A DNA stretch of 64,000 bases from a phage: sequence record NC_094493.1. One strand, 5' to 3'. The position numbers and the translations under genes are program-made. Below, piece by piece: positions 15,653 through 55,626 of the stretch (the stretch's first letter is position 1; each line of letters starts with the position of its first letter). The notes under the pieces were generated by a model. That model had not been told where the DNA came from, made no database searches, and worked only from the letters and a program-made list of their open reading frames with translations.

Positions 15653-15681
15653 TTGACTTTACTCTAAATCTCCGATATAGT
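15653..15681 (+). promoter_or_regulatory. sigma70-type promoter for the plus-strand middle operon
   Basis: TTGACT, 17-nt spacer, TATAGT, about 40 nt upstream of the ATG at 15722. Confidence 0.6.
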
Positions 15682-17909: not shown

Positions 17910-18218
17910 GTGGTGGTGGCAGGGATGCCGCTTAGAAGAGTAATAAACATGTTATACCAGAAACACGAACTTTGTGCAGAAAAAGAGTTAAATTTTGACA
18001 AAGTTATCCACAGATATTGTTATGGGAAGACCGGAAGACAACTAAGAAGGTGTACCCCAACATTCTTTCACCCCAGTAGACGGCTAAGTCCTGAAGAAGC
18101 AACAGCAGAAAGGGTTGCATACAACTGGGAAGTTGTGTACGATATTGACAGATCCGATGTGGCATCTGTTTTGGAAAACTTTGAAAACACTTACACACAA
18201 GTAGAGGACTTTTACTAA
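17910..18218 (+). CDS. hypothetical protein (102 aa)
   Basis: Co-oriented ORF; stop overlaps the start of the AAA+ gene. Confidence 0.5.
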   Translation: MVVAGMPLRRVINMLYQKHELCAEKELNFDKVIHRYCYGKTGRQLRRCTPTFFHPSRRLSPEEATAERVAYNWEVVYDIDRSDVASVLENFENTYTQVEDFY

Positions 18219-19402
18219 TGTCAAGAAACGTATTTGAAAGTGGTCAAATCACTGTCCGTGAGTTGCCAGCTATCATTCAGTTTGCCCAACGTCATAACCG
18301 ATCTGTCCTGATTTTAGGACCAATGGGCGTGGGGAAGAGCCAGGTGATGAAGCAGATCGCCGATAATATGTTCGGTGAGCGAGATGACAACCTGGTTGAC
18401 GTGCGACTGTCAGATAAAGATCCTGCCGACTTATCTGGGCTACCTATCCCTGTAGAAGCGGATGGAACTACACGTACAGTGTTTGCAATTCCAGAATTCT
18501 GGCCTGCAGATCCGGGCTGGAGCGGAATTATCTTTCTGGATGAGCTCACTCATGCAGATAACTACCTGCAAAAGGTTGCAATGCAGATTATGCTCGACCA
18601 CAAGTGCGGCACCTATGCATTCCCTAAGGGCTCTGTTTTTGTAGCTGCAGGTAACCGTTCTACAGATGGTGCTGTTCTTTCGGCGCTCGAAGCCCCTCTG
18701 GCTAACCGCTTTATCATTGTAGAAGTTACAAGCAACGCAGAGGTGTTTATTGAGGACTACGCATTCCTTAATGGGGTGCACTCCTCTGTAATTGGATATC
18801 TGAAAAGAGTTCCATCAGCTATTGATAATTATGAGGCCATGGCTGAGATTAATTGTCCATCTTTTGCCACACCGCGATCTTGGGTTGCTGCATCTGATAT
18901 CTTGCACGATTTTGACAGCGGTATTATTTCTGACGCTATGGCCCGTGTTCTTCTACAAGGTGCTATTGGTCACACTGCAGCGGTAGAGATCTGGACTTAC
19001 CACACCAAGAAACGCAACTTACCGGAAATCGGTCGGATTATGGCAGGAGGTTGCAAAGAATACGTAGGCCCTAAACAGCCAGACATCTTGTGGATTCTTG
19101 GATCTGAAGGTTGTATCGCTATTCGTAATATGATGGAAAATGCAAGTATCTCCGACGAAGATCTTGTTAGCTGTGTGGCAAACTTCCTCGATTTCCTTTG
19201 GGAAAACTTCAAGGACGAGAACCGAGATTTTGTATTCTCAGTCTTTATGGCGATGATGAAACCTAATGCCTTAGGAAATGCCTTGCTTATCGGTAAAGGT
19301 CGTGACAAGATTGTTGCTCAGCTGATCAAAGCATACCCAAACCTGATGAAGATTGTAAAAGAGTTTGGTGAAGAGTTTAGCGCCATTTTGGCTAAAGCTT
19401 AA
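18218..19402 (+). CDS. MoxR-like AAA+ ATPase
   Basis: Walker A LILGPMGVGKS and Walker B IIFLDELTHAD; single AAA core of about 390 aa as in MoxR/AAA_5 proteins. Confidence 0.75.
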   Translation: MSRNVFESGQITVRELPAIIQFAQRHNRSVLILGPMGVGKSQVMKQIADNMFGERDDNLVDVRLSDKDPADLSGLPIPVEADGTTRTVFAIPEFWPADPGWSGIIFLDELTHADNYLQKVAMQIMLDHKCGTYAFPKGSVFVAAGNRSTDGAVLSALEAPLANRFIIVEVTSNAEVFIEDYAFLNGVHSSVIGYLKRVPSAIDNYEAMAEINCPSFATPRSWVAASDILHDFDSGIISDAMARVLLQGAIGHTAAVEIWTYHTKKRNLPEIGRIMAGGCKEYVGPKQPDILWILGSEGCIAIRNMMENASISDEDLVSCVANFLDFLWENFKDENRDFVFSVFMAMMKPNALGNALLIGKGRDKIVAQLIKAYPNLMKIVKEFGEEFSAILAKA

Positions 19403-19411
19403 GGAGGTTGT

Positions 19412-19792
19412 ATGGCTAAAGTAGGTAAGCGGGGAAACTACCTGGTGGTATTGACCGAGGAGCCGGAGAAGGAGTACGAATGCAGCTCCACTTGCGTGAT
19501 CGATATCCGAGAAAAAGATGTAGATGAAATCTGGTTTAAAATATTGGACGCTTGCGATAGCAGTGATTATTTCTTCATCTATGTCAACGATAAGGCTGGG
19601 TTCTTCCATGACGACGGAGAGTTGCCGTATGAAATCTATGAACTTGTAGAGGCTTGCCATCGTGGAGATGCGGAGTTGTTTGGCTTACGGCTGAAAAGCG
19701 GTAAATTCTTCTATCAAGATGAGTGCATGAATCTTCATAACTTTGTAGAGGGAACTTGCAACGATGGAGAGATTTTGGCACACTACGATTAA
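19412..19792 (+). CDS. hypothetical protein (126 aa)
   Basis: ATG with GGAGG RBS immediately after the AAA+ gene. Confidence 0.5.
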   Translation: MAKVGKRGNYLVVLTEEPEKEYECSSTCVIDIREKDVDEIWFKILDACDSSDYFFIYVNDKAGFFHDDGELPYEIYELVEACHRGDAELFGLRLKSGKFFYQDECMNLHNFVEGTCNDGEILAHYD

Positions 19793-19804
19793 TTTCTAAT
19801 ACCA

Positions 19805-19830
19805 CCCCGCTTCGGCGGGGATTTTCTATT
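19805..19830 (+). terminator. putative intrinsic terminator
   Basis: CCCCGCttcgGCGGGG hairpin followed by ATTTTCTATTT. Confidence 0.6.
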
Positions 19831-19840
19831 TGGAGTTATT

Positions 19841-20341
19841 GTGAAAATTAAGATCTTTGCTATTATTTTGAGCGCATTTTTATCGCTGCCTGTTGTTGCA
19901 GCACCAAAACAAAAAGTATATCATACTTGCAAGCCCTCAGATACTAAGGAAAACATTTTGGCATGTAATATCTACAGGGAAGCTAGAGGGGATGGCACGA
20001 TGGGTATGCTGGCATCTGGGTTTGCCACATTAAACAGGAAATCTCACCCTAAATACCCAGACACTATAAGAAAGATTGTCTACCAACCTAACCAGTTTTC
20101 GTGGACAAACCACGGCAAAACTTTTAAGGTGACAGAAAAAGATTCATGGGATCACGCTAAAAGTCTTGCAAAGATGCTTCTAAAGGTCTATAATAACAAC
20201 CATGTTGCATACATGGCTATGGATATAACAGGTGGAGCAACACACTACCATACAACCAAAGTACGACCGAAATGGGCAAAAAAGATGCAGAGGACAGCTC
20301 AATTCGGGAGCCATATCTACTACAAGGAGCGCAATAAATGA
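19841..20341 (+). CDS. secreted cell-wall hydrolase (SleB/Hydrolase_2-like), candidate lysis enzyme
   Basis: GTG start with GGAG RBS; N-terminal signal peptide MKIKIFAIILSAFLSLPVVA; NIYREARGDG and GATHYHT motifs reminiscent of SleB-family hydrolases. Confidence 0.55.
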   Translation: MKIKIFAIILSAFLSLPVVAAPKQKVYHTCKPSDTKENILACNIYREARGDGTMGMLASGFATLNRKSHPKYPDTIRKIVYQPNQFSWTNHGKTFKVTEKDSWDHAKSLAKMLLKVYNNNHVAYMAMDITGGATHYHTTKVRPKWAKKMQRTAQFGSHIYYKERNK

Positions 20342-22320
20342 TTGTAAACAGTAATGAAACTAAAGCAGTGCTAACCGGAAATATGGAGGTCACCAGGGGC
20401 TCAATTTCTCTGAACAAAGAGACTTTTGGGCTAATCATTAAAGGGATTTACGAAGATAAGGTGCTGGCAAGCTGCCGTGAACCAATCTTCAACGCTGTAG
20501 ACTCCCATGTTGAGTCTGGACGGGGTGATGTACCGATCATCATTCACTCTCCTACAGACCTTGAACCATACTTCTTTGTGCAGGACGTTGGATTGGGCAT
20601 GTCAGAAGAGATGGTCCGCAACACGTTCATGAACCTTGGAGAGTCAACCAAGCGCAACAGTAACGCTCTGGTAGGTAATAAAGGTGTTGGTTCAAAGGCT
20701 CCGTTCAGCATGGTGGACACTTTCGATGTTATCAGTGTGCACAATGGTGTTGAAAGCACATATCTATTGTTCTTGGATCAGGGTATCCCAAACGTTACCA
20801 AGATCCGCGAGCGGAAGACTGAAGAGCACAACGGGGTAAAAGTTCAGTTCCATGTTAAGAAAGAGCATGTCCTGAAATATCGCACTGCTATTGCATCGTG
20901 CTTACGCTATGCGAAGTTTCCGTTCATCGTCACCGATCCCATGACCAGTAAGATGTTAGAAGGTGACAAGGTTGAGGCACAGTATCATTACGAGAAGGAT
21001 GGCTGGAAAATGACCATCCTGAAAGGTTATACCAGTTCTGATGAGAGCCGTGTTGTGATGGGTCACCAACCTTACCGCTCCAAGTTCCTGGAGACATTGA
21101 CCGATTACCCTGCAATCTGCGTGGAAATTCCTATTGGGGATTGCAATATTAACCCTGGGCGTGAATGGACCATAGAGGGCCATGACGACGGTGGATTCCA
21201 GGATCGCCTGGAGGCATTTGTCAAAGAAGGTATACGTCTTCGCGGGGCAGAAGTTGTTGCAGAACTGGAGACGGCAAAAACCTCCGCAGAAGCACGTGAA
21301 ATGATGAAGAATAGTGGAGTGTTCGGACACATCTTCGGCAAGAACTTTATGTGGAACCGTTGGGAAGAAACAGGGCTTGGCGACTTAGGCGATTGTGAAA
21401 TTTTCGCTGGCGGCTTAAATAAAGGCCGCATAGGCTATGCTCGTTACGGAAAGTCGGAGTTCTTACGAGGTGTATACCTTGTATTTAACGACGGAGACGG
21501 CAAATATAACCGGAATAAGTGTAACTACTTAAGCGAGATCACCGGACGCAACGTTTTCTATTGCCGGAACACGGATCTGGTGAAAGAGTTTAAAGAGGCG
21601 GCACACCATCCGTTCTTTGCAGATACGGTCAAATTGTTATCGGAGCTTCCACGCCGACCTGCGAAGAAAGGTGAAACCAAAACTCGTTACGAGCCAGGCT
21701 ACTGGGTTAAGAAGCTTAGAGAGGATGGCTACTTCCATCGTGAGCGCCTCACGAAGGCAGAGTTCAAGAAGATTAAGCATTGCATCCCTTATGAGGGGGA
21801 TATCCAACGGGGAAGCTGCTGGCTGGGCCAGATGAGTAACATCTACCAGCAAAATTATGACCGTGTGCGTGCTGCACTCCAGATTCCTGAAGGTGAAGAT
21901 CTGTACCTGGTATCAGAATCTCGTCTGCTTTGGACTGATCCTGATTGCCAGTATGTTACAGAGAAGAATGTGGAACATTTGTTGAAAGAGGATGCTTGGA
22001 AATTCTTACTGACTCGCGCAGCAAATGAAACTTCATATGACAGCCTGTATAGACAATTAGGGAAAATTATCCCCATGCAGGATTTTGGAAATTATCGGCC
22101 ACATTTCCACAAGTGGGAAGGTAACACCGCGTGGAAGCACAGTGAGCTAAATCATCGTGCCAAAATCTTAATCGCCAACCGGGTTAAGTGCGGGAAGGCC
22201 TATATTGCAAGATTGGAAAAGAAATATCCACTTTTGAAGCATGTAGGCTTGAAATATTGGGACACTCCTGCTATGATTGAATACCGTGAACTGATCGATA
22301 CAAAGAATAACATCAAATAA
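20338..22320 (+). CDS. rIIA: rIIA-like GHKL-family ATPase
   Basis: Bergerat-fold motifs in order: N-box EPIFNAVDSH, G1 FVQDVGLGMS, G2 GNKGVGSKAPFSMVDTFDVISVHNG (close to the T4 rIIA segment as I recall it); 660 aa; AAGGAG RBS. Confidence 0.7.
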   Translation: MIVNSNETKAVLTGNMEVTRGSISLNKETFGLIIKGIYEDKVLASCREPIFNAVDSHVESGRGDVPIIIHSPTDLEPYFFVQDVGLGMSEEMVRNTFMNLGESTKRNSNALVGNKGVGSKAPFSMVDTFDVISVHNGVESTYLLFLDQGIPNVTKIRERKTEEHNGVKVQFHVKKEHVLKYRTAIASCLRYAKFPFIVTDPMTSKMLEGDKVEAQYHYEKDGWKMTILKGYTSSDESRVVMGHQPYRSKFLETLTDYPAICVEIPIGDCNINPGREWTIEGHDDGGFQDRLEAFVKEGIRLRGAEVVAELETAKTSAEAREMMKNSGVFGHIFGKNFMWNRWEETGLGDLGDCEIFAGGLNKGRIGYARYGKSEFLRGVYLVFNDGDGKYNRNKCNYLSEITGRNVFYCRNTDLVKEFKEAAHHPFFADTVKLLSELPRRPAKKGETKTRYEPGYWVKKLREDGYFHRERLTKAEFKKIKHCIPYEGDIQRGSCWLGQMSNIYQQNYDRVRAALQIPEGEDLYLVSESRLLWTDPDCQYVTEKNVEHLLKEDAWKFLLTRAANETSYDSLYRQLGKIIPMQDFGNYRPHFHKWEGNTAWKHSELNHRAKILIANRVKCGKAYIARLEKKYPLLKHVGLKYWDTPAMIEYRELIDTKNNIK

Positions 22321-22330
22321 GGAGACCAAG

Positions 22331-23536
22331 ATGATTTTCATCTACGAACATTTCAAAACTCGTAAAGAAGCACGCGACCGCCGTGCAGAACTTGAGAAGA
22401 AGGGTTTCACATGTGCCATTGAGAAAGGTGACACAACCTGGACACTGGCAGTGGGTGCCCCAGAATTGTTCGATCCTGACCGTGACAGCGTCTGCTACAC
22501 CCGTGAGGATTTTGAAACCCGTGAAGAGGCCCGTCTATTTCGATATGGGCTGGAAGATAACGGTAAGTACGCCATGATCTTAGACTTAGGCGAAGGTTCC
22601 GTTAAACGTTGGAGCGTGATATACCCACTGTGTGTTGTTCACGGTGTGGGGTTCACCGGGGTGGCAATCAAGTCAGAAGAACCTTTAGTAGAAGTCAAAG
22701 ACCCGGTGCTGGAGGTGGTGAGCAGTGTGTCTCAGCAACAGACTCGAAGCATCGAGCCTTTAGTAGTTATTTGTGGGGAACTCCTCCAGATCACCTGCAA
22801 CGAAGGCATTTTTGAAATTCGCCGCAGCGAAAGTGAGGAAGTTTACCAGAAAGTCTTCGACCATATCTCTGTTCAGGAATATGATGAGGCAATTGGTGAA
22901 ATCCTTGTCTGGCTGGAACGCAAGAATGAGTTCACCACACTTGCAGACAACCTGATCATGAAAGATGGTAAGCTCTACTACTACGGTGTAGAGATGCGAT
23001 CCACCATTGCAAAGAAAATTGAGAAAGACTATGCAGACGGAACACTGGATGACCGCTATGTGAAATTCCTCGTTCGCCTGCTACGCAATCCTTCTGCAAA
23101 ATCTGTAAACATGCTCTACGATTTTATGCAGGCCAACGATATCCAGATTGCAGAAGATGGTCGAATCATTTGCTACAAAGGGGTTCAGTTTAACGGCAGC
23201 AAGTGGGTGGATTGGCACAGTGGTAAAGTTCCACAATACCAGGGTGCTTTTGTATCCATGCCTCGTAACTTTGTAGAGGATGATCCTGAAGCTGCGTGCT
23301 CCTATGGCTTACACTGCGCCAGCAAGGAGTATGCAAAGAGCTACGGCACTGTAATGACTGTCATGGTTGACCCTGCAGATGTGGTTAGTGTGCCATACCA
23401 ACACAATAGCGCTAAGTGCCGTGCCTGCCGCTATGAGATTGTGGTAGCTCCGGAAGCACGCAAGGACGGAGACCCGATTGAATACGTGGTTGACCGAGAC
23501 GGTAACACTATCGACATTCTTTACGAGGAGGCGTAA
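22331..23536 (+). CDS. hypothetical protein, possible rIIB-like partner
   Basis: 401-aa ORF with AAGGAGA RBS directly downstream of the rIIA-like gene; assignment by synteny only. Confidence 0.45.
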   Translation: MIFIYEHFKTRKEARDRRAELEKKGFTCAIEKGDTTWTLAVGAPELFDPDRDSVCYTREDFETREEARLFRYGLEDNGKYAMILDLGEGSVKRWSVIYPLCVVHGVGFTGVAIKSEEPLVEVKDPVLEVVSSVSQQQTRSIEPLVVICGELLQITCNEGIFEIRRSESEEVYQKVFDHISVQEYDEAIGEILVWLERKNEFTTLADNLIMKDGKLYYYGVEMRSTIAKKIEKDYADGTLDDRYVKFLVRLLRNPSAKSVNMLYDFMQANDIQIAEDGRIICYKGVQFNGSKWVDWHSGKVPQYQGAFVSMPRNFVEDDPEAACSYGLHCASKEYAKSYGTVMTVMVDPADVVSVPYQHNSAKCRACRYEIVVAPEARKDGDPIEYVVDRDGNTIDILYEEA

Positions 23537-30782: not shown

Positions 30783-33206
30783 ATGAGTATGTGGTCTTTC
30801 GATCTGGAGGCCTCCGGGCTTTTGGAAGATCTAGATCTTTATTATCACTGCGGTCTGTTTAAAGAGCTGAATAAGAACCGTTTTATGCTGTTCCTTCCTC
30901 TAAATGACCGCACACACTACTCCGAGGAGGATATAGAGAAGGCTAAGAACTTTATTCTGGCAAAGAAAACTCTTTATAAAGATTTTGAAGTTCGCATAGC
31001 AGATTTTTCGGAGTTGGAAGGTTGGCTTACAGGCAATTCCGACTGGTCACCAACAGCTTTGAACTGCCATAACTGCTACAGTTATGACTTTATGCTGATG
31101 GAAAGATTATCCGGTATTCATTTTGACATGTTCCGTGATCCTAAATGCATGGGTACTATCAACGACCACCAGGTTAACCTGTTTGATACGTTGGCGATGA
31201 GTCGAATCTTGTGGCCTGATCGCCCTTTACCAAAAGGTTGTCCGGACTCTGTATTCAACCCGGTCACTAAGAAAATGCAGCCTGTTGGTCCTCACGGCCT
31301 TATGGCATGGGGCTATGCTCTTGGTAACCAGAAAGTTCAAATTGATGACTGGCGCGATCTTCCGTTGTGGAAGTATGTGGATCGTGTATTTGAGGACGTT
31401 ATCATCCAGGAGCTGCTCTGGAAAGAACTGGTAGCGGAATCAAAAGGTGTATTCTACGGCAAGTCTGACATGCAGAACTTTATGTACGATCCTGCCAAAG
31501 AGAAGCCGAAAGGGTTCAAGAAGATCACCTGGAAGAACGCATTACGCCGAGGCATGCTGCAGCACTTCCTGATGGAGCTGCAGGCCCGTCAGGGTGTGTA
31601 TTTCGACATAGATGGAGCTATTGCTTTACGTGACCGTTGCGATGCGTGGATGAAAGAAATCGCTGATCGTGTTGAACCACAACTGCCTTTAAAAGAGCTG
31701 TCAATGTCTCAGCGGCCCAAGTTCCCTGAAAAGCCGTTTAACCAAGACGGGACAATCTCTAATAATGGTTGGAAATGGTTAAAAGATAAGCTTGGCTATC
31801 CTGTAGACATGAGCGCTCTAGAGTTCAAAGCCCCGCCTAAGAGAGCATTTACCTCCACAGGAGATGTCAGTAAGATGGGGATAAAATGGTGTGAAGAGAT
31901 GGGCTGCAAAGACCCCGATAAGATGGCTGATTTCTTGAGAGGCTATATTAAGGGCACCTCAACACCACAACCTTTACCTAAAGAGCTAATGGATCAGGCA
32001 ATAAGCGATCTGCAGCAGAAGCGAATGCCTGACTGCAAGATACCTATGAAAATCAGCAATCAGGACGACATTAAGCGATACCTGATCAGTGCTGGTTGGC
32101 TTCCGACAATGTGGAGAACTAAGGATGTAACTAAAGACAGCAAGAAGAAAGCTCTACCTGATGCAGATGTTGATGCACGAGTATATGCATACATGGACGA
32201 GCTTTTAGAGTCAGAGTATTGTGACCTAATTATCAACTTCTGGAACAAAACTGATGCTAAGTTTCAGACAACAGTGCACAAGTTCCGAAGCTTTCCTAAC
32301 TCCGAAAGGATTAAAAAGGAAGTATTCGGGAAAATACGTAGAAAAGCTAGGGCACTTATTACTTCTCCGCAACTGAAAGATACGTTTGGACACCTATGTC
32401 CGAATCTTGAAAAATTGAACGGAGAGATGGCTAAGGATATCGTCTTGTGGTTATCCTTGCGAAACCGCAGATCGGTCCTTGATCCAATCAAGGAGGATAA
32501 GGTTGATACTGGTCTTCTTAATCACCCACGCTTGAAGATTGACCATAAGCTTCCTGCTAAAAGCTCCGGATTAACAAACACTTCCAGACAGAAACACAGC
32601 ATTTGTGCAAACATGCCTAAACCCTCTCCTAAAGTGGTTATGGGTAAGGAGATGCGTAGCTTGTGGGGTGTTCCTCCTGGATACTTTGAGATCGGTATTG
32701 ACGGGTCCAACTTAGAGCAGCTTATCGGGGCTTGGGGTGCCTTTGAGTTCGACAACGGCTTGTATTATGATGTTGTAAGTAACGGGGACGCACACCAAAA
32801 CAATGCTGAGGCATATACAAAAGTAGCAGGCAGAGAGGTGTCTCGTAACGACGGTAAACCTATCACGTATGGGGTTATGTACGGGGCACAAAAAGATAAA
32901 GTTGCAGATATGCTGGACATCTCTCCAGAGTTGGGACAAAGGGTAATCGATGCACTCTGGGATGCCAACCCTGGTCTTAAGGGGCGCAAAGAGGATCTGG
33001 AGAAATTCTGGGAAGCAACAGGTAAGAAGTTTATCTACTCTTTTGATGGTCATGCTATCTGGACCCGATCTAAACACTCTTTACTTAATGCATACCAACA
33101 GAATGGTGGTGCATCGCTGTGTGACTTGGTTGGGATACTTATGCACCACCAAATGGTGAAGCGTGGGTGGTACGATGAAGGTGTTCGTCGTATTATTTAT
33201 TACCAT
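30783..33206 (+). CDS. family A (T7-like) DNA polymerase, exon 1
   Basis: 3'-5' exonuclease Exo I FDLEASG; motif A IDGSNLEQL; motif B RNDGKPITYGVMYGAQ; reading frame stops 1 codon after ...IIYYH, exactly where motif C (HDE) should continue. Confidence 0.85.
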
Positions 33207-33482
33207 AAATAACATTGTGGCTTCATAGAGTAATCTATGTCGAATAACCTCTTTAACTGCGGGAAGCCTAAACCTTATGGCAAGGTAATCCGCAACGAAG
33301 CGCTCAAAAGAGCGAACGCTCAGAGGCCATTCCGAAAGGAAGTAGACCAGCAAGTGCGGTCGAAATGGGAGGATTCCTGTGGTTGCTTATCATAGGAATA
33401 TGAGATGGTCCGATCCTACGTGAAAACGTATGGCTATGCACGTAATGGTGCGGGGTAGCTTAACGACCTACCTGAACTATTG
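33207..33482 (+). ncRNA. putative group I self-splicing intron (no ORF) interrupting the DNA polymerase
   Basis: 276 nt between ...YYH and DEYQLQV...; 5' exon ends in U and intervening sequence ends in G; P-like AACTGCGGGAAG (33255), Q-like AATCCGCAACG (33287), R-like GTAGACCAG (33342) and S-like GAGATGGTCC (33402) elements; candidate guide GTGG at 33217. Confidence 0.7.
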
Positions 33483-47462: not shown

Positions 47463-47490
47463 GGCGGCGGCATATTTGCCGCCTTATTGT
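47463..47490 (+). terminator. intrinsic terminator
   Basis: GGCGGCggcatatttGCCGCC followed by TTATTGTT. Confidence 0.55.
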
Positions 47491-47519
47491 TAATCAGAAC
47501 TGTAAAAGAGGTACATAGA

Positions 47520-47891
47520 ATGGAATTTATTATTTTGGCTATATTAGTTGCCTTGTTTAACGCCTGGATCGCTGGCAAGATGGGCAGATCCGCCTTTTTA
47601 TGGTTTATTATATCTATTTTCCTGGGAGTGGTTGCAACTATTGTATTGGTTATCCTTGCAATTGTTGACAAGGGGAATAATAGAAAGGGTAAAGTATTTT
47701 CAGACCTGTACGACGCTCAAACATTTGTCAACGCCTACTACAGCGATCTTCCAGTCTCCCTACGTTGCAGCCTTGCACAACAGGTTTTCGATGAAGCTAA
47801 AACCAGAGATCACGCCCATGAGATTTGTTTAACTGAGGCGGATCGCCTATTTGAGAGGAATAGAAAATATGTGGACCAGCCGTTTAAATAA
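47520..47891 (+). CDS. hypothetical membrane protein (two predicted TM helices)
   Basis: ATG after AAAGAGG; MEFIILAILVALFNAWIAG and FLWFIISIFLGVVATIVLVILAIV. Confidence 0.55.
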   Translation: MEFIILAILVALFNAWIAGKMGRSAFLWFIISIFLGVVATIVLVILAIVDKGNNRKGKVFSDLYDAQTFVNAYYSDLPVSLRCSLAQQVFDEAKTRDHAHEICLTEADRLFERNRKYVDQPFK

Positions 47892-52382: not shown

Positions 52383-52802
52383 ATGAACATTAAATCTGAT
52401 AATCCGGCATATAGCTTTGATAACGCTTTTTGTCACGGTCCGGCGGCGAAAGGATTCGAAATCGATGGTAAACTAGTTATTGTTAATGTTGACGGGGAAG
52501 AGGTTGCAGTATATCCGGTGGCAGACGTTAAAAGCCGTCTACAATGCCGCATGGATGTTACCGCCTATCAGCTTGATCCGGTCCGGGTAGTTGCCCTGGT
52601 CCTGGAAGAAGAAATTAAAGCAATGCACCACAGCAACAAGTTTATTGGTGACGCTCAAGATAATATGCAGGTATGCCGCTATAAAGTTAATGAAGTGCTT
52701 AAAGAGTACGGCTATAAGGATTTAATGATCAAGCGTGATGAAAAATTCCGCTACCGTAACGACCTGGCAAATCGGATTTTTGAAATATACGAATCATTAT
52801 AA
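52383..52802 (+). CDS. hypothetical protein (139 aa)
   Basis: ATG after AAGAGGTAAAAACACC; last plus-strand early gene. Confidence 0.6.
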   Translation: MNIKSDNPAYSFDNAFCHGPAAKGFEIDGKLVIVNVDGEEVAVYPVADVKSRLQCRMDVTAYQLDPVRVVALVLEEEIKAMHHSNKFIGDAQDNMQVCRYKVNEVLKEYGYKDLMIKRDEKFRYRNDLANRIFEIYESL

Positions 52803-52821
52803 TTTTTTAACTGAATTATCA

Positions 52822-52846
52822 AGGGGCTTAGGCCCCTTTCTTTTTG
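52822..52846 (+). terminator. intrinsic terminator closing the plus-strand early block
   Basis: AGGGGCttagGCCCCT followed by TTCTTTTTG. Confidence 0.7.
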
Positions 52847-53565
52847 TCTGCTCTTCCCCCTACCATAAACGGCCCTACCTGGCAAGTGGAATAATTGACG
52901 AGCCATCAATCCCACACACTGTACAAATATACATGTAAAATAGCTATTGCATAACCTTTCATTGTGTGGTAGCAGGGCTATTTTTACCCGTTTTCCCTTC
53001 CAAAATTGCACGTAATGCCGCTATTGCACAAATTTTAACCTGATGCACATCTCCAATATCTTGTCAACAACTAAAAATCTTTATAAGTCATACACTTACA
53101 CAACATAGAAAGCGTGTCCTACGCGAAAAATCGAGTATAACTATAGCCGCCAGATCTCAGAATTCACGTACGCACGCCATTCTATAGCCTGCAAAGTATT
53201 TATTCCAACCACAGAATAACGGAATAGTCAATACCTGCATAAAATAATTATTCGTGTAAACTGCATAACATAAATCAGCTCAGGTGTCAACATTTTTCGT
53301 AAACAGTCCGAAATTATCACGATGAGTTATCATAAACAGAGAAATCTTTAGTCGTCTAATGTTTACTGTACATTACTATACTGACTGGAATCATTAGATG
53401 ACTAAGAGAAAGATAAGAAATAATTAATAATGTGATTATTTTACCTGTAACAATAAGGCAACTATGCAAACGAATGGCATGGCGCGACGGAGTCGCGACA
53501 TAATATAAAAGCAGTAACCATCACCCCCGTGATAGTTTGTCTGCAATCTATTAATCAGATCATAG

Positions 53566-53616
53566 TTGCCTTGTATTTAGTTAATCATGACATAACAAGC
53601 AAGGCAACTATAGATC
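53566..53616. repeat. long palindrome in the non-coding convergent zone
   Basis: CATAGTTGCCTTG...CAAGGCAACTATAG inverted repeat (13-bp arms, about 26-nt loop); AAGGCAACTATG also at 53455 and TAGTTGCCCTG at 53624. Confidence 0.5.
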
Positions 53617-55290
53617 TTCTAATAGTTGCCCTGCTTTTATATTATGTCATAGAAACACCCGAAGGGGTGACCAAAGGTCACCTGGCATAGCCAGCGAAAG
53701 ATTATTAACTTGCTAATCGTTATCATGCAAACGAATGGCATGGCTTATAATTTTTGAGCAAATAGTCTATACGTGAACAGTGAGGCATGCAATAGTAACA
53801 ATTGTTATTATATCCAGTGTTTAGTTTGCCCAGTGTGTCACTATTATGTCATATTATGTCACAGTATGTCAGACAAGTTTTTCTCCTCTTTGTCAAGTGC
53901 TGCATGAAAAATTTACAAGCTGGTATGGTAGCATTTTTGCGGTCCTGTTTACATTCAGTAATGTATGTATAATCCTTGTTGTGTGGGCGTTTAGACGTCT
54001 AGACGGTTGGAAGTCCACAGGTCAATATCTAATCTATCGGCTGCTAACTATATCCCACACAAATAGTAAGAAATATGATTGTTATATGCGTAAACAGTAA
54101 CTCATGTTATCAATCCCTGTATGTATCGCCAGTGGTGCGCATAATGGGTATTATGTTAAATTGCCCGTAATGATAATGGTTCTCACAATGATATGTATTC
54201 TCATTCCCCCACACAAAATAGATTGCAAATGTTGTGCCACTATGTGAACGGCCTCACCTATTAATTTGCCTCACTGCCTCGATATTTGAGAATTGTTATA
54301 AGAATGAGAATGATTCCCATTTCGTCCGCCTGGCAGCACTCCTGTAGGACAAGCACAAAATCGTGGCATAGCTGGACCTGTTCAGATATTTCTGGCTGGC
54401 TCTTCAGGTCTGTGTGGGAAAAGCCAACCCCCTCCGGCGGCGGGGAGGGTGTCAATTAAAAAATTTATGGGGTATATGAAGCGCTCTTCAGGTAAGGCAT
54501 GTACTATGGGATGAAACCCTCTTCAGGCAATGATATTTGTGGGTGTGATATTTGCTGGAAAGCCAGATATGACGGGACTCCCGGCGGGGCAGGGGTAGTA
54601 CAGACAGGGAAAATATGGGGATGTAGTTGGGTGAATTGATCGGGCAGGTAGAGTACGGAATATGTTACAAGTATGTTAAATATGGAGGGTGAATATCTGC
54701 AGGATTTGTGTGTAAAATCAAAGACTTAAGTAGTGTTGTGGTATTTTCTATAAATAATTCAAGTTTAATAGGTAATATTTGTCTCTATCCACTTTGTGTG
54801 GTAAACAAATTCAAATGAGATTGGTTTACAAGTGTATACATAATATGCAAATTAAAGATACAAGAAACCCCCCTCCCCCTTCGGCTACCATTCACCTTTT
54901 CCTCTGACTGGTACTTAAACACTTATTCAGACTCTTCAGGTTATCACCCATACACCATATGGCAGTGACTGGTGTCCTCCGGCCCCTCTTTCGTCACCCG
55001 TCCGCTTCGCCATGCTAATGCCATAGCCAAATGTTCGGTTGTTCACCCTGTTCACTCAGGTGTATCTCCATACCCCTTCAAACCGAAGAGAACAGAAAAC
55101 CCGAATTACTCGGTAAAAGAAAAGAGAAGAACTTAATTTTATCAGGATAGGCAAGAATGTCAAGGCATGACTGCTCACTAAACAAGCAAACAGTCATGTG
55201 TGGGAGGTAAGTGATTGTGGTGGTAGGAAATTTAGTTGAAAGATGTGTTATAGGTGCTTCCAGCACTTTAGCCTGGCAGCTAATTGTGTG

Positions 55291-55506
55291 TCAGTCCAGC
55301 GGTTCATCCTCTACTTCACTGAAATCAATGTTCATGGTCTCTTCCCAACCATCGATCTCAGCACAAGAGTGGAGTTCTTTAGGGTTTACTCCCAAAGCCT
55401 CAGCAACAGAGTCTATATTTAACACCTCTGGCAGGTATGATTCATCGAATTCAAGGTAAATCAGGCCACGAGTGTTGTCAACTCCACCAAATATTTCTAT
55501 CTTCAT
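55291..55506 (-). CDS. hypothetical acidic protein
   Basis: ATG at 55506 preceded by AGGAGA; begins MKIEIFGG, the MK[IV][KE][IL] N-terminus seen in several genes of this block; ORF-track start 55572 trimmed. Confidence 0.55.
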   Translation of the reverse strand: MKIEIFGGVDNTRGLIYLEFDESYLPEVLNIDSVAEALGVNPKELHSCAEIDGWEETMNIDFSEVEDEPLD

Positions 55507-55626
55507 GAAATCTCCTCTGGAAATGAGAGTGTGAACAGGGTTTATACGTTCCAATGCACTGGAATTATGCACGTTTGCCTCTTCAGACCATGCTTTAGCA
55601 TGAGGAACCTGTGTGGGCTCGGTGCT

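What the first reader, a model, noticed from the sequence alone, without database searches (positions are those of the whole stretch)
19841..20341. Signal-peptide-bearing SleB-like cell-wall hydrolase located inside the replication module
The product has a cleavable-looking N-terminal signal peptide and SleB/Hydrolase_2-like motifs (NIYREARGDG, HYHT). It is flanked by terminators and replication genes rather than sitting in a lysis cassette with holin and spanin genes. It may be a secreted or signal-anchor-release endolysin whose timing is set by the middle-gene programme.
Basis: partly seen in the sequence, partly recalled or inferred. Interest (0 to 1): 0.45.

Follow-up and report, generated by a model that had tools for sequence, protein, structure and literature searches.

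The report
Secreted SleB-like hydrolase of rV5-like phage
This is the already-annotated "cell wall hydrolase" (gene 2) of rV5-like E. coli phages: a small cell-wall-cutting enzyme with an export signal that sits just upstream of rIIA/rIIB and is most likely a second lysis enzyme beside the phage's main lysozyme. It is a real feature but an ordinary, known one.

Summary
The ORF at 19841-20341 (+, GTG start, 166 aa) is real. It matches Pfam Hydrolase_2/SleB (E 2e-19, 70 bits against a cutoff of 27), and its model matches only SleB catalytic domains in the PDB. Glu47, aligned with the SleB catalytic Glu, is invariant in 158/158 homologues. The N-terminus looks like a cleavable Sec signal peptide (MKIK-IFAIILSAFLSLPVVA|AP), not a SAR domain. 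About 90% of homologue representatives have an N-terminal hydrophobic segment.

The window is a Vequintavirus, 98% identical to phage AlexBoehm. The gene is rV5 gene 2, annotated "cell wall hydrolase, PF07486" since 2013. Buttimer 2020 described the family as signal-peptide-bearing, toxic on expression and conserved across Vequintavirinae.

There is only one terminator, upstream (rV5 t003). The 3' end overlaps rIIA (ATGA), followed by rIIB and then the helicase.

The lineage has a separate lambda-R-type endolysin, spanins next to the terminase gene and a putative holin. This enzyme is therefore best read as an accessory, holin-independent lysin. An upstream terminator hairpin and a GTG start suggest throttled expression from an early sigma70-driven unit. 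Timing and activity are untested.

Novelty: already known. Interest is low.

The parts
15653..15681 (+). sigma70-type promoter (TTGACT-17-TATAGT), equal to rV5 promoter P010. It heads the rightward transcription unit that contains the hydrolase gene 4 kb downstream.
   Evidence: 10/12 consensus match; the identical sequence is listed as P010 in rV5 Table S4; the rV5 paper defines the unit as genes 10-1-238-164. Function is predicted only.
19805..19830 (+). Rho-independent terminator-like hairpin CCCCGC-TTCG-GCGGGG followed by an interrupted T-tract (ATTTTCTATTT). It abuts the hydrolase RBS and probably attenuates transcription.
   Evidence: (MFE -14.3 kcal/mol, z -1.97); listed as rV5 t003, dG -16; identical in AlexBoehm and nomine; an analogous hairpin plus T-tract precedes the orthologue in Seunavirus, Certrevirus and Phapecoctavirus.
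19832..19835 (+). Shine-Dalgarno GGAG, 5 nt before the GTG start.
   Evidence: Read directly from the sequence; conserved in relatives.
19841..20341 (+). Hydrolase_2 (SleB/CwlJ-family) cell-wall hydrolase gene, 166 aa. Orthologue of rV5 gene 2, AlexBoehm bas56_0063 and nomine_63.
19841..19900 (+). Predicted Sec signal peptide (aa 1-20, MKIKIFAIILSAFLSLPVVA), with predicted SPase I cleavage between A20 and A21.
   Evidence: heuristics only: KD 2.5, -3 V and -1 A, Pro at -4; equivalent peptides in orthologues; 50% identity to P0002 in the signal peptide against 85% in the mature part; a signal peptide is reported for the CB7 homologue.
19979..19981 (+). GAA codon for Glu47, the presumed catalytic acid. 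It aligns with the first Glu of the SleB motif YGESRGE.
   Evidence: alignment to 4f55/4fet; E in 158/158 homologues.
19991..20323 (+). Stretch matched by the Pfam Hydrolase_2 profile (aa 51-161).
20338..22320 (+). rIIA homologue (660 aa, HATPase_c_3 N-terminus). Its start codon overlaps the hydrolase stop (ATGA), and its own AAGGAG RBS lies inside the hydrolase 3' end.
   Evidence: PF13589, 1.8e-8; PHROG 612 RIIA, 3e-124.
22331..23536 (+). rIIB homologue (401 aa).
   Evidence: PHROG 609 RIIB, 1.3e-61.

Best explanation
The gene encodes the Vequintavirus orthologue of rV5 gp2, a small basic protein (mature about 16.9 kDa, pI about 10) of the SleB/CwlJ 'Hydrolase_2' family. It is made with a classical N-terminal Sec signal peptide. 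It would be exported to the periplasm without a holin and cleaved after Ala20. There it would cut peptidoglycan glycan strands using the invariant Glu47, by analogy with SleB as a lytic transglycosylase. It is not the main endolysin. The lineage has a soluble lambda-R-type endolysin, spanins and a putative holin elsewhere in the genome. The enzyme is therefore best read as an accessory, holin-independent lysin that pre-loads or weakens the wall and adds to final lysis. It lies in the sigma70-driven early/middle unit, is the first gene after terminator t003 and uses a GTG start. These features probably keep the amount of a potentially toxic secreted enzyme low. It is co-transcribed with rIIA-rIIB, and its stop codon overlaps the rIIA start. 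Shown here: family membership, fold, catalytic residue, N-terminal hydrophobic export-type segment, gene order, hairpin and start codon. Inferred: cleavage site, periplasmic location, lytic transglycosylase chemistry, throttled expression, and the accessory-lysin role.
For: Family and fold: Pfam 70 bits against cutoff 27. The AF2 model has pLDDT 87.9, and its only significant PDB matches are SleB catalytic domains (E 3e-5, TM 0.75 on the target). Catalytic Glu47 is invariant in 158/158 homologues and aligns with the SleB Glu. Export: the n/h/c organisation has V-V-A|A and Pro at -4. The same layout occurs in Seunavirus (TPVLA|K), Certrevirus (VPALA|K), Phapecoctavirus (TPVVA|Q/K) and a T5-like phage (NSHA|T). 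145 of 160 homologue representatives have an N-terminal hydrophobic segment. Cys residues are present in the mature part (C30, C42), and a different Cys pair is conserved in most of the family, which is consistent with an oxidising compartment. Accessory role: a lambda-R homologue is the endolysin (1am7, E 3e-56, no TMD). The rV5 paper calls gp89 the 'obvious lysin' and gp129 a putative holin. Spanins lie next to the terminase gene. No gp2 peptides were found in the rV5 virion MS file. Literature: the CB7 homologue has a signal peptide and was toxic when expressed in E. coli (data not shown in that paper), and homologues occur in all Vequintavirinae genera. Kayvirus Tgl is an experimentally shown precedent: a Sec-secreted second lysin transcribable by host RNA polymerase. 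Expression: P010 and t003 are the only predicted signals upstream. No rV5-type late motif occurs on the + strand between 6743 and 26085. A hairpin plus T-tract abuts the RBS in five lineages. The start codon is non-ATG in 4 of 5 rV5-like loci, against 9/71 in the genome background.
Against: No enzymatic, localisation or timing data exist for this protein or a close orthologue. [quoted passage not shown] The signal-peptide call rests on my own heuristics, because no SignalP-type predictor was available. The h-region is long and very hydrophobic (KD 2.5), so an uncleaved signal anchor cannot be excluded. SleB itself needs muramic-delta-lactam, which E. coli peptidoglycan lacks, so substrate and bond specificity may differ. 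A constitutively exported active muralytic enzyme made early would be expected to risk premature lysis. The proposed throttling by terminator read-through and a GTG start is inference. Terminator-like hits in the region as a whole are not more frequent than in shuffled sequence (11 against 8.7).
Confidence: 0.6

Rival explanations
1. SAR (signal-anchor-release) endolysin. The N-terminal segment is an uncleaved, weakly anchored TMD that tethers an inactive enzyme to the inner membrane until a pinholin depolarises the membrane and releases it.
For: There is an N-terminal hydrophobic segment and no adjacent canonical holin. Related genera carry a small 2-TMD membrane protein gene directly downstream of the orthologue that could be a pinholin-like partner. 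Cys42 lies five residues from the catalytic Glu47, which recalls the Cys caging in P1 Lyz (from memory).
Against: It has 59% ILVFM, no Gly, and a canonical -3/-1 SPase I site preceded by Pro, and that site is conserved in other lineages. The window has no homologue of the small 2-TMD gene, and the hydrolase stop overlaps rIIA. A separate soluble endolysin exists.
Confidence: 0.1
2. An early periplasmic peptidoglycan-remodelling enzyme with a non-lytic role. It could enlarge or loosen the sacculus for the infected cell, alter the wall against superinfecting phage, or release muropeptides, acting together with the rIIA/rIIB membrane proteins.
For: The gene sits in a sigma70-driven unit with rIIA/rIIB, and no late-promoter motif was found upstream in the window. 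In Phapecoctavirus the orthologue has its own strong sigma70-like promoter with an extended -10. Its position at the head of the helicase/primase module is conserved across two subfamilies. A full lysis set already exists elsewhere. E. coli tolerates several periplasmic lytic transglycosylases (established knowledge).
Against: No direct evidence exists for any such role. The homologue was reported toxic on expression. The nearest experimentally studied analogue, Kayvirus Tgl, behaves as an additional lysin. The rII adjacency is not universal: Certrevirus and Phapecoctavirus lack it.
Confidence: 0.2
3. A catalytically dead or non-enzymatic peptidoglycan-binding protein, or a virion-associated lysin used at injection.
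For: Hydrolase_2 proteins are poorly characterised outside Bacillus. Several other 'cell wall hydrolase' labels in this genome are tail/baseplate proteins.
Against: The catalytic Glu and all other family-invariant residues are intact. A signal peptide is incompatible with cytoplasmic virion assembly. No peptides of the protein appear in the rV5 virion MS file. The gene is not in the structural module.
Confidence: 0.04

Closest known systems
rV5 gp2 and its orthologues in Vequintavirinae (AlexBoehm bas56_0063, nomine_63, CB7_83, CR3_087, the PVP-SE1 'second endolysin')
   Same: It is the same gene: 98-99% protein identity within Vequintavirus, the same length (166 aa), the same Pfam domain, the same upstream terminator t003 and the same overlap with rIIA. 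A signal peptide and toxicity on expression were reported for CB7_83.
   Different: Nothing substantive differs. In Seunavirus, Mydovirus and Certrevirus a small 2-TMD ORF follows the gene, and it is absent here. Certrevirus and Phapecoctavirus lack rIIA/rIIB at this position.
Bacillus SleB (germination-specific lytic transglycosylase; PDB 4F55, 4FET)
   Same: It shares the catalytic-domain fold and the conserved catalytic Glu in the Y-x-E-[AS]-R-G motif. Both are made with an N-terminal signal sequence; 4fet is named a 'prepeptide'.
   Different: Sequence identity is only about 20-22%. The phage protein has no N-terminal PG_binding_1 domain, since Hydrolase_2 was the only Pfam hit. The host peptidoglycan lacks the muramic-delta-lactam that SleB requires (established knowledge). 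The phage protein carries an extra helical insertion around aa 95-127 relative to SleB.
Kayvirus Tgl (Sec-secreted additional lytic enzyme of staphylococcal phages)
   Same: It works alike in outline. Both are signal-peptide-bearing lytic-transglycosylase-type enzymes encoded apart from the major endolysin. Tgl can be transcribed by host RNA polymerase and lyses E. coli when expressed with its signal peptide.
   Different: The catalytic family is unrelated (IsaA/SceD-like, not Hydrolase_2), the host is Gram-positive, and no homology is claimed.
SAR endolysins (P1 Lyz, phage 21 R, KMV45)
   Same: They also use holin-independent, Sec-dependent export of a muralytic enzyme through an N-terminal hydrophobic segment.
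   Different: SAR domains are Gly/Ala-rich, weakly hydrophobic and uncleaved, and they are paired with pinholins. Here the segment is strongly hydrophobic with a canonical cleavage site, and no adjacent pinholin is present.

Membership tests
Pfam PF07486 Hydrolase_2 (SleB/CwlJ cell-wall hydrolase family) | Profile match above the curated gathering score | tested here: met
   70.4 bits against a cutoff of 27, E 2.1e-19, covering profile positions 2-100 of 100.
Pfam PF07486 Hydrolase_2 (SleB/CwlJ cell-wall hydrolase family) | Conserved catalytic glutamate in the Y-x-E-[AS]-R-G motif | tested here: met
   Glu47 aligns with the SleB Glu and is present in 158/158 aligned homologues.
Pfam PF07486 Hydrolase_2 (SleB/CwlJ cell-wall hydrolase family) | SleB catalytic-domain fold | tested here: met
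   The AF2 model has pLDDT 87.9. In Foldseek against the PDB, only 4fet and 4f55 are significant (prob 1.00, TM 0.69-0.75 on the target).
Pfam PF07486 Hydrolase_2 (SleB/CwlJ cell-wall hydrolase family) | Muralytic (lytic transglycosylase) activity producing 1,6-anhydromuropeptides | not testable with these tools
   This needs enzymology on sacculi. [quoted passage not shown]
SleB proper (Bacillus spore cortex-lytic enzyme orthologue) | N-terminal PG_binding_1 domain plus a C-terminal Hydrolase_2 domain | tested here: not met
   It is a single-domain protein; no Pfam hit other than Hydrolase_2 appeared at E<=1. It is a family member, not a SleB orthologue.
Sec-signal-peptide (holin-independent) secreted phage lysins | N-terminal tripartite signal peptide with an SPase I (-3,-1) site | tested here: met
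   Heuristic only. There is a K2/K4 n-region, a 16-17 aa h-region (KD 2.5), Pro at -4 and V-V-A|A. The layout is conserved in orthologues while the sequence drifts, with 50% identity against 85% in the mature part. No dedicated predictor was available.
Sec-signal-peptide (holin-independent) secreted phage lysins | Sec-dependent export and processing; lysis on expression that requires the signal peptide | not testable with these tools
   This needs expression with and without the signal peptide, a secA/azide test and N-terminal mapping.
SAR endolysins | Weakly hydrophobic, Gly/Ala/Ser-rich N-terminal TMD without a cleavage site | tested here: not met
A canonical cleavage motif is present.
SAR endolysins | Partner pinholin gene adjacent | tested here: not met
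   The stop codon overlaps rIIA. No small TMD ORF adjoins the gene, and the window has no homologue of the Seunavirus or Certrevirus 2-TMD ORFs.
Canonical late lysis-cassette endolysin | Clustered with holin/spanin genes and driven by a late promoter | tested here: not met
   In the 98%-identical relative AlexBoehm, the spanins lie next to the terminase gene, and the endolysin and putative holin are tens of kb away. The rV5 late motif does not occur upstream.

The most novel reading that the evidence does not exclude
The hydrolase is not merely a spare endolysin. It would be one half of an ancestral, early-expressed envelope module of rV5-like phages, consisting of a secreted lytic transglycosylase, a small 2-TMD membrane protein and rIIA/rIIB. 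Its output would be deliberately throttled by a conserved terminator hairpin abutting the RBS and by a non-ATG start. Vequintavirus would have lost the small membrane partner and fused the gene directly to rIIA. That would hint at a functional link between rII proteins and control of peptidoglycan integrity or lysis timing.
Probability: 0.15. Interest if true: 0.5.

Novelty: already known. Interest (0 to 1): 0.15.

Why it matters
If the accessory-lysin reading is right, rV5-like phages carry two routes to the cell wall. One is a holin-gated lambda-R-type endolysin. The other is a Sec-exported SleB-type enzyme made from an early transcription unit. This matters for understanding lysis timing in therapeutic Vequintavirus phages, which are widely used against E. 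coli O157 and APEC. It also matters for lysin engineering, because the enzyme is small, very basic and active in a Gram-negative periplasm. The gene, its domain and its signal peptide are already in the literature and in more than 100 GenBank annotations, so the finding adds no new biology. Only the expression-throttling features and the lost small membrane partner are modestly new observations.

Tried and rejected
(1) SAR reading: I compared hydrophobicity and composition with SAR and Sec reference segments and looked for a cleavage motif across lineages. I rejected it in favour of a cleavable signal peptide.

(2) Lipoprotein reading: the query has no lipobox, although some T5-like homologues have a lipobox-like ...TASC motif.

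(3) Hidden holin near the gene: I scanned all ORFs of at least 35 aa in the window for two TM segments and ran tblastn with the Seunavirus and Certrevirus small ORFs. Nothing adjoins the gene and there is no homologue. The only overlapping 2-TM-like ORF (20217-20438, minus strand) is antisense to two coding genes and was treated as spurious.

(4) Own promoter: there is no room between the hairpin and the RBS. The sigma70-like hits inside the gene (19839-19866 and 20166-20194) occur at chance frequency (21 against 18.9 expected). No late motif lies nearby.

(5) Downstream terminator: none was found on the + strand before about 25085.

(6) Virion protein: there are no tryptic peptides of the protein in the rV5 MS supplement. 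This is a weak negative, because the stored file may be truncated.

(7) Transcriptome data for Vequintavirus: none was found. The PAK_P3/PAK_P4 RNA-seq papers discuss a different gene as the endolysin.

(8) Rfam and tRNA scans of the window found nothing at the locus.

(9) The SleB structure paper PMC3415495 was not available. The catalytic-Glu assignment therefore rests on the alignment, on family invariance and on my own knowledge of SleB.

(10) I could not measure the Cys30-Cys42 distance, because model coordinates are not exposed. The disulfide idea remains an inference.

Full report
1. The observation.

The family assignment is far beyond chance.
- Pfam PF07486 Hydrolase_2 scores 70.4 bits against a gathering score of 27 (E 2.1e-19), covering the whole profile.
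- PHROG 938 'endolysin' scores 1.7e-27.
- phmmer finds only the SleB catalytic domains 4F55 and 4FET in the PDB (E 2.5e-6).
- An AlphaFold2 model built on 11 sequences is confident (mean pLDDT 87.9, pTM 0.80).
- In Foldseek against the PDB, the only significant matches are those same SleB domains (probability 1.00, TM 0.69-0.75 on the target). Every other hit has E>0.6.

I aligned the query with the 160 homologues retrieved. Glu47 aligns with the first Glu of the SleB YGESRGE motif and is present in 158 of 158 sequences with a residue there. N43, Y45, R49, N65, R66, Q85-F-S-W88, H137, P143, W145, H158 and Y161 are also highly conserved.

2. The N-terminus.

Residues 1-20 (MKIKIFAIILSAFLSLPVVA) have the following features:
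- a basic n-region;
- a 16-17 residue h-region with mean Kyte-Doolittle hydropathy 2.5 and no glycine;
- a proline at -4;
- V and A at -3 and -1 before Ala21.

No lipobox is present. It looks like an ordinary cleavable Sec signal peptide.

The orthologues keep this layout although the sequence drifts:
- Seunavirus: ...TTTPVLA|KEN
- Certrevirus: ...ASVPALA|KDN
- Phapecoctavirus: ...TFTPVVA|QAE and |KAE
- a T5-like phage: ...FNSHA|THD

Against the 81%-identical homologue P0002, the signal region is 50% identical while the mature part is 85% identical. Across the 160 homologue representatives, 145 have an N-terminal hydrophobic segment, and 11 of those have a lipobox-like motif. Export is thus a property of the whole subfamily.

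The mature protein would be about 16.9 kDa with pI about 10. It has two Cys residues (C30, C42). Most of the wider family instead conserves a different Cys pair, at alignment columns 39 and 77. Both arrangements fit an oxidising compartment, but I could not measure distances in the model.

I had no dedicated signal-peptide predictor, so the cleavage site is an inference.

3. Where the gene sits.

The window is a Vequintavirus, an rV5-like E. coli myovirus. Region 18000-23000 is 98.1% identical to phage AlexBoehm and 95-99% identical to 97 other records.

Deposited annotations call the gene 'putative cell wall hydrolase' (bas56_0063) and 'cell wall hydrolase SleB' (nomine_63). The rV5 genome paper lists it as gene 2: 'cell wall hydrolase, 166 aa, 19052 Da, pI 10.0, PF07486'.

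Upstream lie a MoxR-like AAA ATPase (18218-19402) and a 126-aa protein of unknown function (19412-19792; PHROG 12370, with a T5.083 homologue according to rV5 Table S3). Downstream lie rIIA (20338-22320; PHROG 612, 3e-124; HATPase_c_3) and rIIB (22331-23536; PHROG 609, 1.3e-61). A Dda/PIF1-like helicase, methyltransferases, the primase/helicase and the DNA polymerase follow.

The hydrolase stop codon overlaps the rIIA start (ATGA), and an AAGGAG for rIIA lies inside the hydrolase 3' end. 'Inside the replication module' is therefore only loosely true, because the immediate partners are rIIA and rIIB. 'Flanked by terminators' is wrong for the downstream side.

4. Transcription signals.

One GC-rich hairpin, CCCCGC-TTCG-GCGGGG followed by ATTTTCTATTT, sits at 19805-19830 and runs straight into the RBS. 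It is the terminator t003 (dG -16) of the rV5 paper, and it is identical in AlexBoehm and nomine.

No room for a promoter exists between it and the start codon. The rV5 promoter table lists none there either. The nearest upstream promoter is P010 (TTGACT-17-TATAGT), which corresponds to window 15653-15681. According to that paper, P010 heads the transcription unit 'genes 10-1-238-164'.

The rV5 late-promoter motif TGGTAAAATA (one mismatch allowed) has no + strand match between 6743 and 26085.

The most economical reading is that the hydrolase, rIIA and rIIB are made from read-through of t003 on an early/middle, host-RNA-polymerase-dependent transcript.

Two features suggest expression is kept low.
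- A hairpin plus T-tract directly abutting the RBS recurs before the orthologue in Seunavirus, Certrevirus and two Phapecoctavirus genomes, with unrelated sequences.
- The start codon is non-ATG in four of these five loci (GTG, TTG, TTG, TTG), against 9 of 71 annotated CDS in AlexBoehm.

In Phapecoctavirus a good sigma70-type promoter with an extended -10 (TTGCAA-17-TACAAT or TATACT) lies between the hairpin and the gene. That again points to host-polymerase transcription.

These are sequence-based inferences. I found no transcriptome for any Vequintavirus. In the region as a whole, the numbers of promoter-like and terminator-like hits are no higher than in shuffled sequence.

5. The rest of the lysis equipment.

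The 98%-identical relative AlexBoehm carries several lysis-related genes elsewhere:
- i-spanin and o-spanin genes next to the terminase gene;
- a 'putative holin' (bas56_0110), whose equivalent in the window is the 2-TM ORF within 47487-47891;
- an 'endolysin' (bas56_0202) beside the DNA ligase gene.

That endolysin is a clear homologue of the phage lambda R lysozyme (PDB 1AM7, E 3e-56) and has no N-terminal hydrophobic segment. The rV5 paper likewise names gp89 the 'obvious lysin' and gp129 a putative holin, and it does not discuss gene 2 in its lysis section.

The SleB-like protein is therefore a second muralytic enzyme, not the main endolysin. No tryptic peptide of it appears in the rV5 virion mass-spectrometry file, and a signal peptide would not fit a virion protein.

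6. How general the arrangement is.

tblastn finds homologues in 1,336 phage records. These include Vequintavirinae, Stephanstirmvirinae, T5-like Demerecviridae, Pseudomonas Nankokuvirus and others, and most are annotated as cell wall hydrolase, SleB or endolysin. HMMER finds 11,334 cluster representatives in the large protein library.

The gene's position at the head of the helicase/primase block is conserved:
- Seunavirus: hydrolase, then rIIA, rIIB and helicase.
- Certrevirus: hydrolase, two small ORFs, then helicase, with no rII genes.
- Phapecoctavirus: hydrolase, small ORFs, glycosyltransferases, then primase/helicase.
- Nankokuvirus CHA_P1: among ligase, DprA and helicase genes. The published PAK_P3/PAK_P4 endolysin is a different gene with its own holin/spanin candidates.

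The published literature already says most of this. Buttimer et al. 2020 report three things: SleB-like CB7_83 homologues occur in all Vequintavirinae genera; the protein has a signal peptide and was toxic on expression in E. coli (data not shown); and in Certrevirus a 2-TMD candidate holin overlaps it. Later papers repeat the annotation. Hydrolase_2 is a recognised catalytic domain among lysins of phages that infect Gram-negative bacteria.

7. One detail I did not see described.

Seunavirus SPLA5a has an unannotated 57-aa ORF (L006:5036-5209) between the hydrolase and rIIA. It has one clear TM segment plus a second hydrophobic stretch that fell below my threshold, and a basic C-terminus. The ORF is conserved in 54 records, including PVP-SE1 gene 244, GAP31, 4MG, Klebsiella KB57 and Proteus Mydo. 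Together with the Certrevirus 62-aa 2-TMD ORF, this suggests an ancestral pair of hydrolase plus small membrane protein.

The window has no such ORF and no homologue of either one. In Vequintavirus the hydrolase gene is joined directly to rIIA.

8. Mechanism and rivals.

The best-supported account runs as follows. The protein is a Sec-exported, signal-peptidase-processed periplasmic Hydrolase_2 enzyme. It cleaves glycan strands through Glu47, with lytic transglycosylase chemistry by analogy with SleB. It is produced at a low level from an early/middle transcript and acts as an accessory, holin-independent lysin alongside the lambda-R-type endolysin and the spanins.

The closest functional precedent with experiments is Kayvirus Tgl. 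Tgl is an unrelated Sec-secreted lytic-transglycosylase-type second lysin. It can be transcribed by host polymerase and lyses E. coli only when its signal peptide is present.

The rivals are these:
- A SAR endolysin. This is disfavoured by composition, by the cleavage motif and by the lack of an adjacent pinholin.
- A non-lytic early wall-remodelling or superinfection role. This is not excluded.
- An inactive or virion protein. This is disfavoured by the intact active site, the signal peptide and the proteomics.

Family membership and the export signal are well supported. The biological role and timing are not, because no activity, localisation or expression data exist.

9. Verdict.

The interpretation needs three corrections: the signal is cleavable rather than SAR, the enzyme is accessory rather than the sole endolysin, and the gene has only an upstream terminator and is coupled to rIIA/rIIB. 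The gene and its main features have been annotated since 2013 and discussed since 2020, so it is already known and of low interest. The modest residual interest lies in the conserved expression-throttling features and in the lost small membrane partner.

Noticed in passing
window 33197-33432 (+): A group I catalytic intron (Rfam RF00028, 64.7 bits against gathering 50, E 4e-14) lies immediately after the first DNA-polymerase ORF (30783-33212). AlexBoehm annotates its polymerase as a two-piece join with a homing endonuclease inside.
   Followed up: partly
L006:5036-5209 (Salmonella phage SPLA5a, Seunavirus): An unannotated 57-aa ORF lies between the SleB-like gene and rIIA. It has one clear TM segment, a second hydrophobic stretch below my threshold, and a basic C-terminus. 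It is conserved in 54 phage records (PVP-SE1 gene 244, GAP31, 4MG, Klebsiella KB57, Proteus Mydo) and absent from this window. It could be a holin, antiholin or immunity partner of the hydrolase.
   Followed up: partly
L006:4501-5031 against the annotated CDS L006:4648-5031: The SPLA5a record starts its 'endolysin' CDS at an internal ATG. The homology begins 147 nt upstream at a TTG that adds a canonical signal peptide, so the deposited protein lacks its export signal.
   Followed up: partly
GenBank MG0656xx records matching window 18000-23000: Sixteen to twenty-three unannotated records named 'Campylobacter phage' (host C. jejuni) are 97-98% identical to this E. coli Vequintavirus. They are probably mislabelled or contaminant assemblies.
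   Followed up: no
window 22331-22640 (rIIB N-terminus, aa 1-100): There is a sub-threshold SPOR-domain hit (aa 8-42, E 1.4e-3, 19.3 bits against cutoff 21). By eye it looks like a tandem repeat of the same F-x-TR-EA...G...A motif. A peptidoglycan-binding-type fold in rIIB next to a wall hydrolase would be curious, but it is unproven.
   Followed up: no
window 19841; L006:4501; L008:4501; L009:4483: The hydrolase gene uses a non-ATG start in Vequintavirus (GTG), Seunavirus (TTG) and two Phapecoctavirus genomes (TTG), against 9/71 non-ATG starts among annotated AlexBoehm CDS. In all five rV5-like lineages examined, including Certrevirus (ATG start), a hairpin plus T-tract of unrelated sequence abuts the RBS.
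   Followed up: partly
window 47487-47891 (+): This ORF has two strong TM segments (from the internal ATG: MEFIILAILVALF...FLGVVATIVLVILAIV). It corresponds to the 'putative holin' bas56_0110 of AlexBoehm. The PHROG hit has unknown function, so the holin label is unverified.
   Followed up: no
window about 52800-55600: This stretch of about 2.5 kb has no ORF of at least 100 aa. It corresponds to the unannotated gap between bas56_0129 and bas56_0130 in AlexBoehm and to the 'non-coding' box in the rV5 map. The Rfam gathering scan and ARAGORN found nothing there.
   Followed up: no
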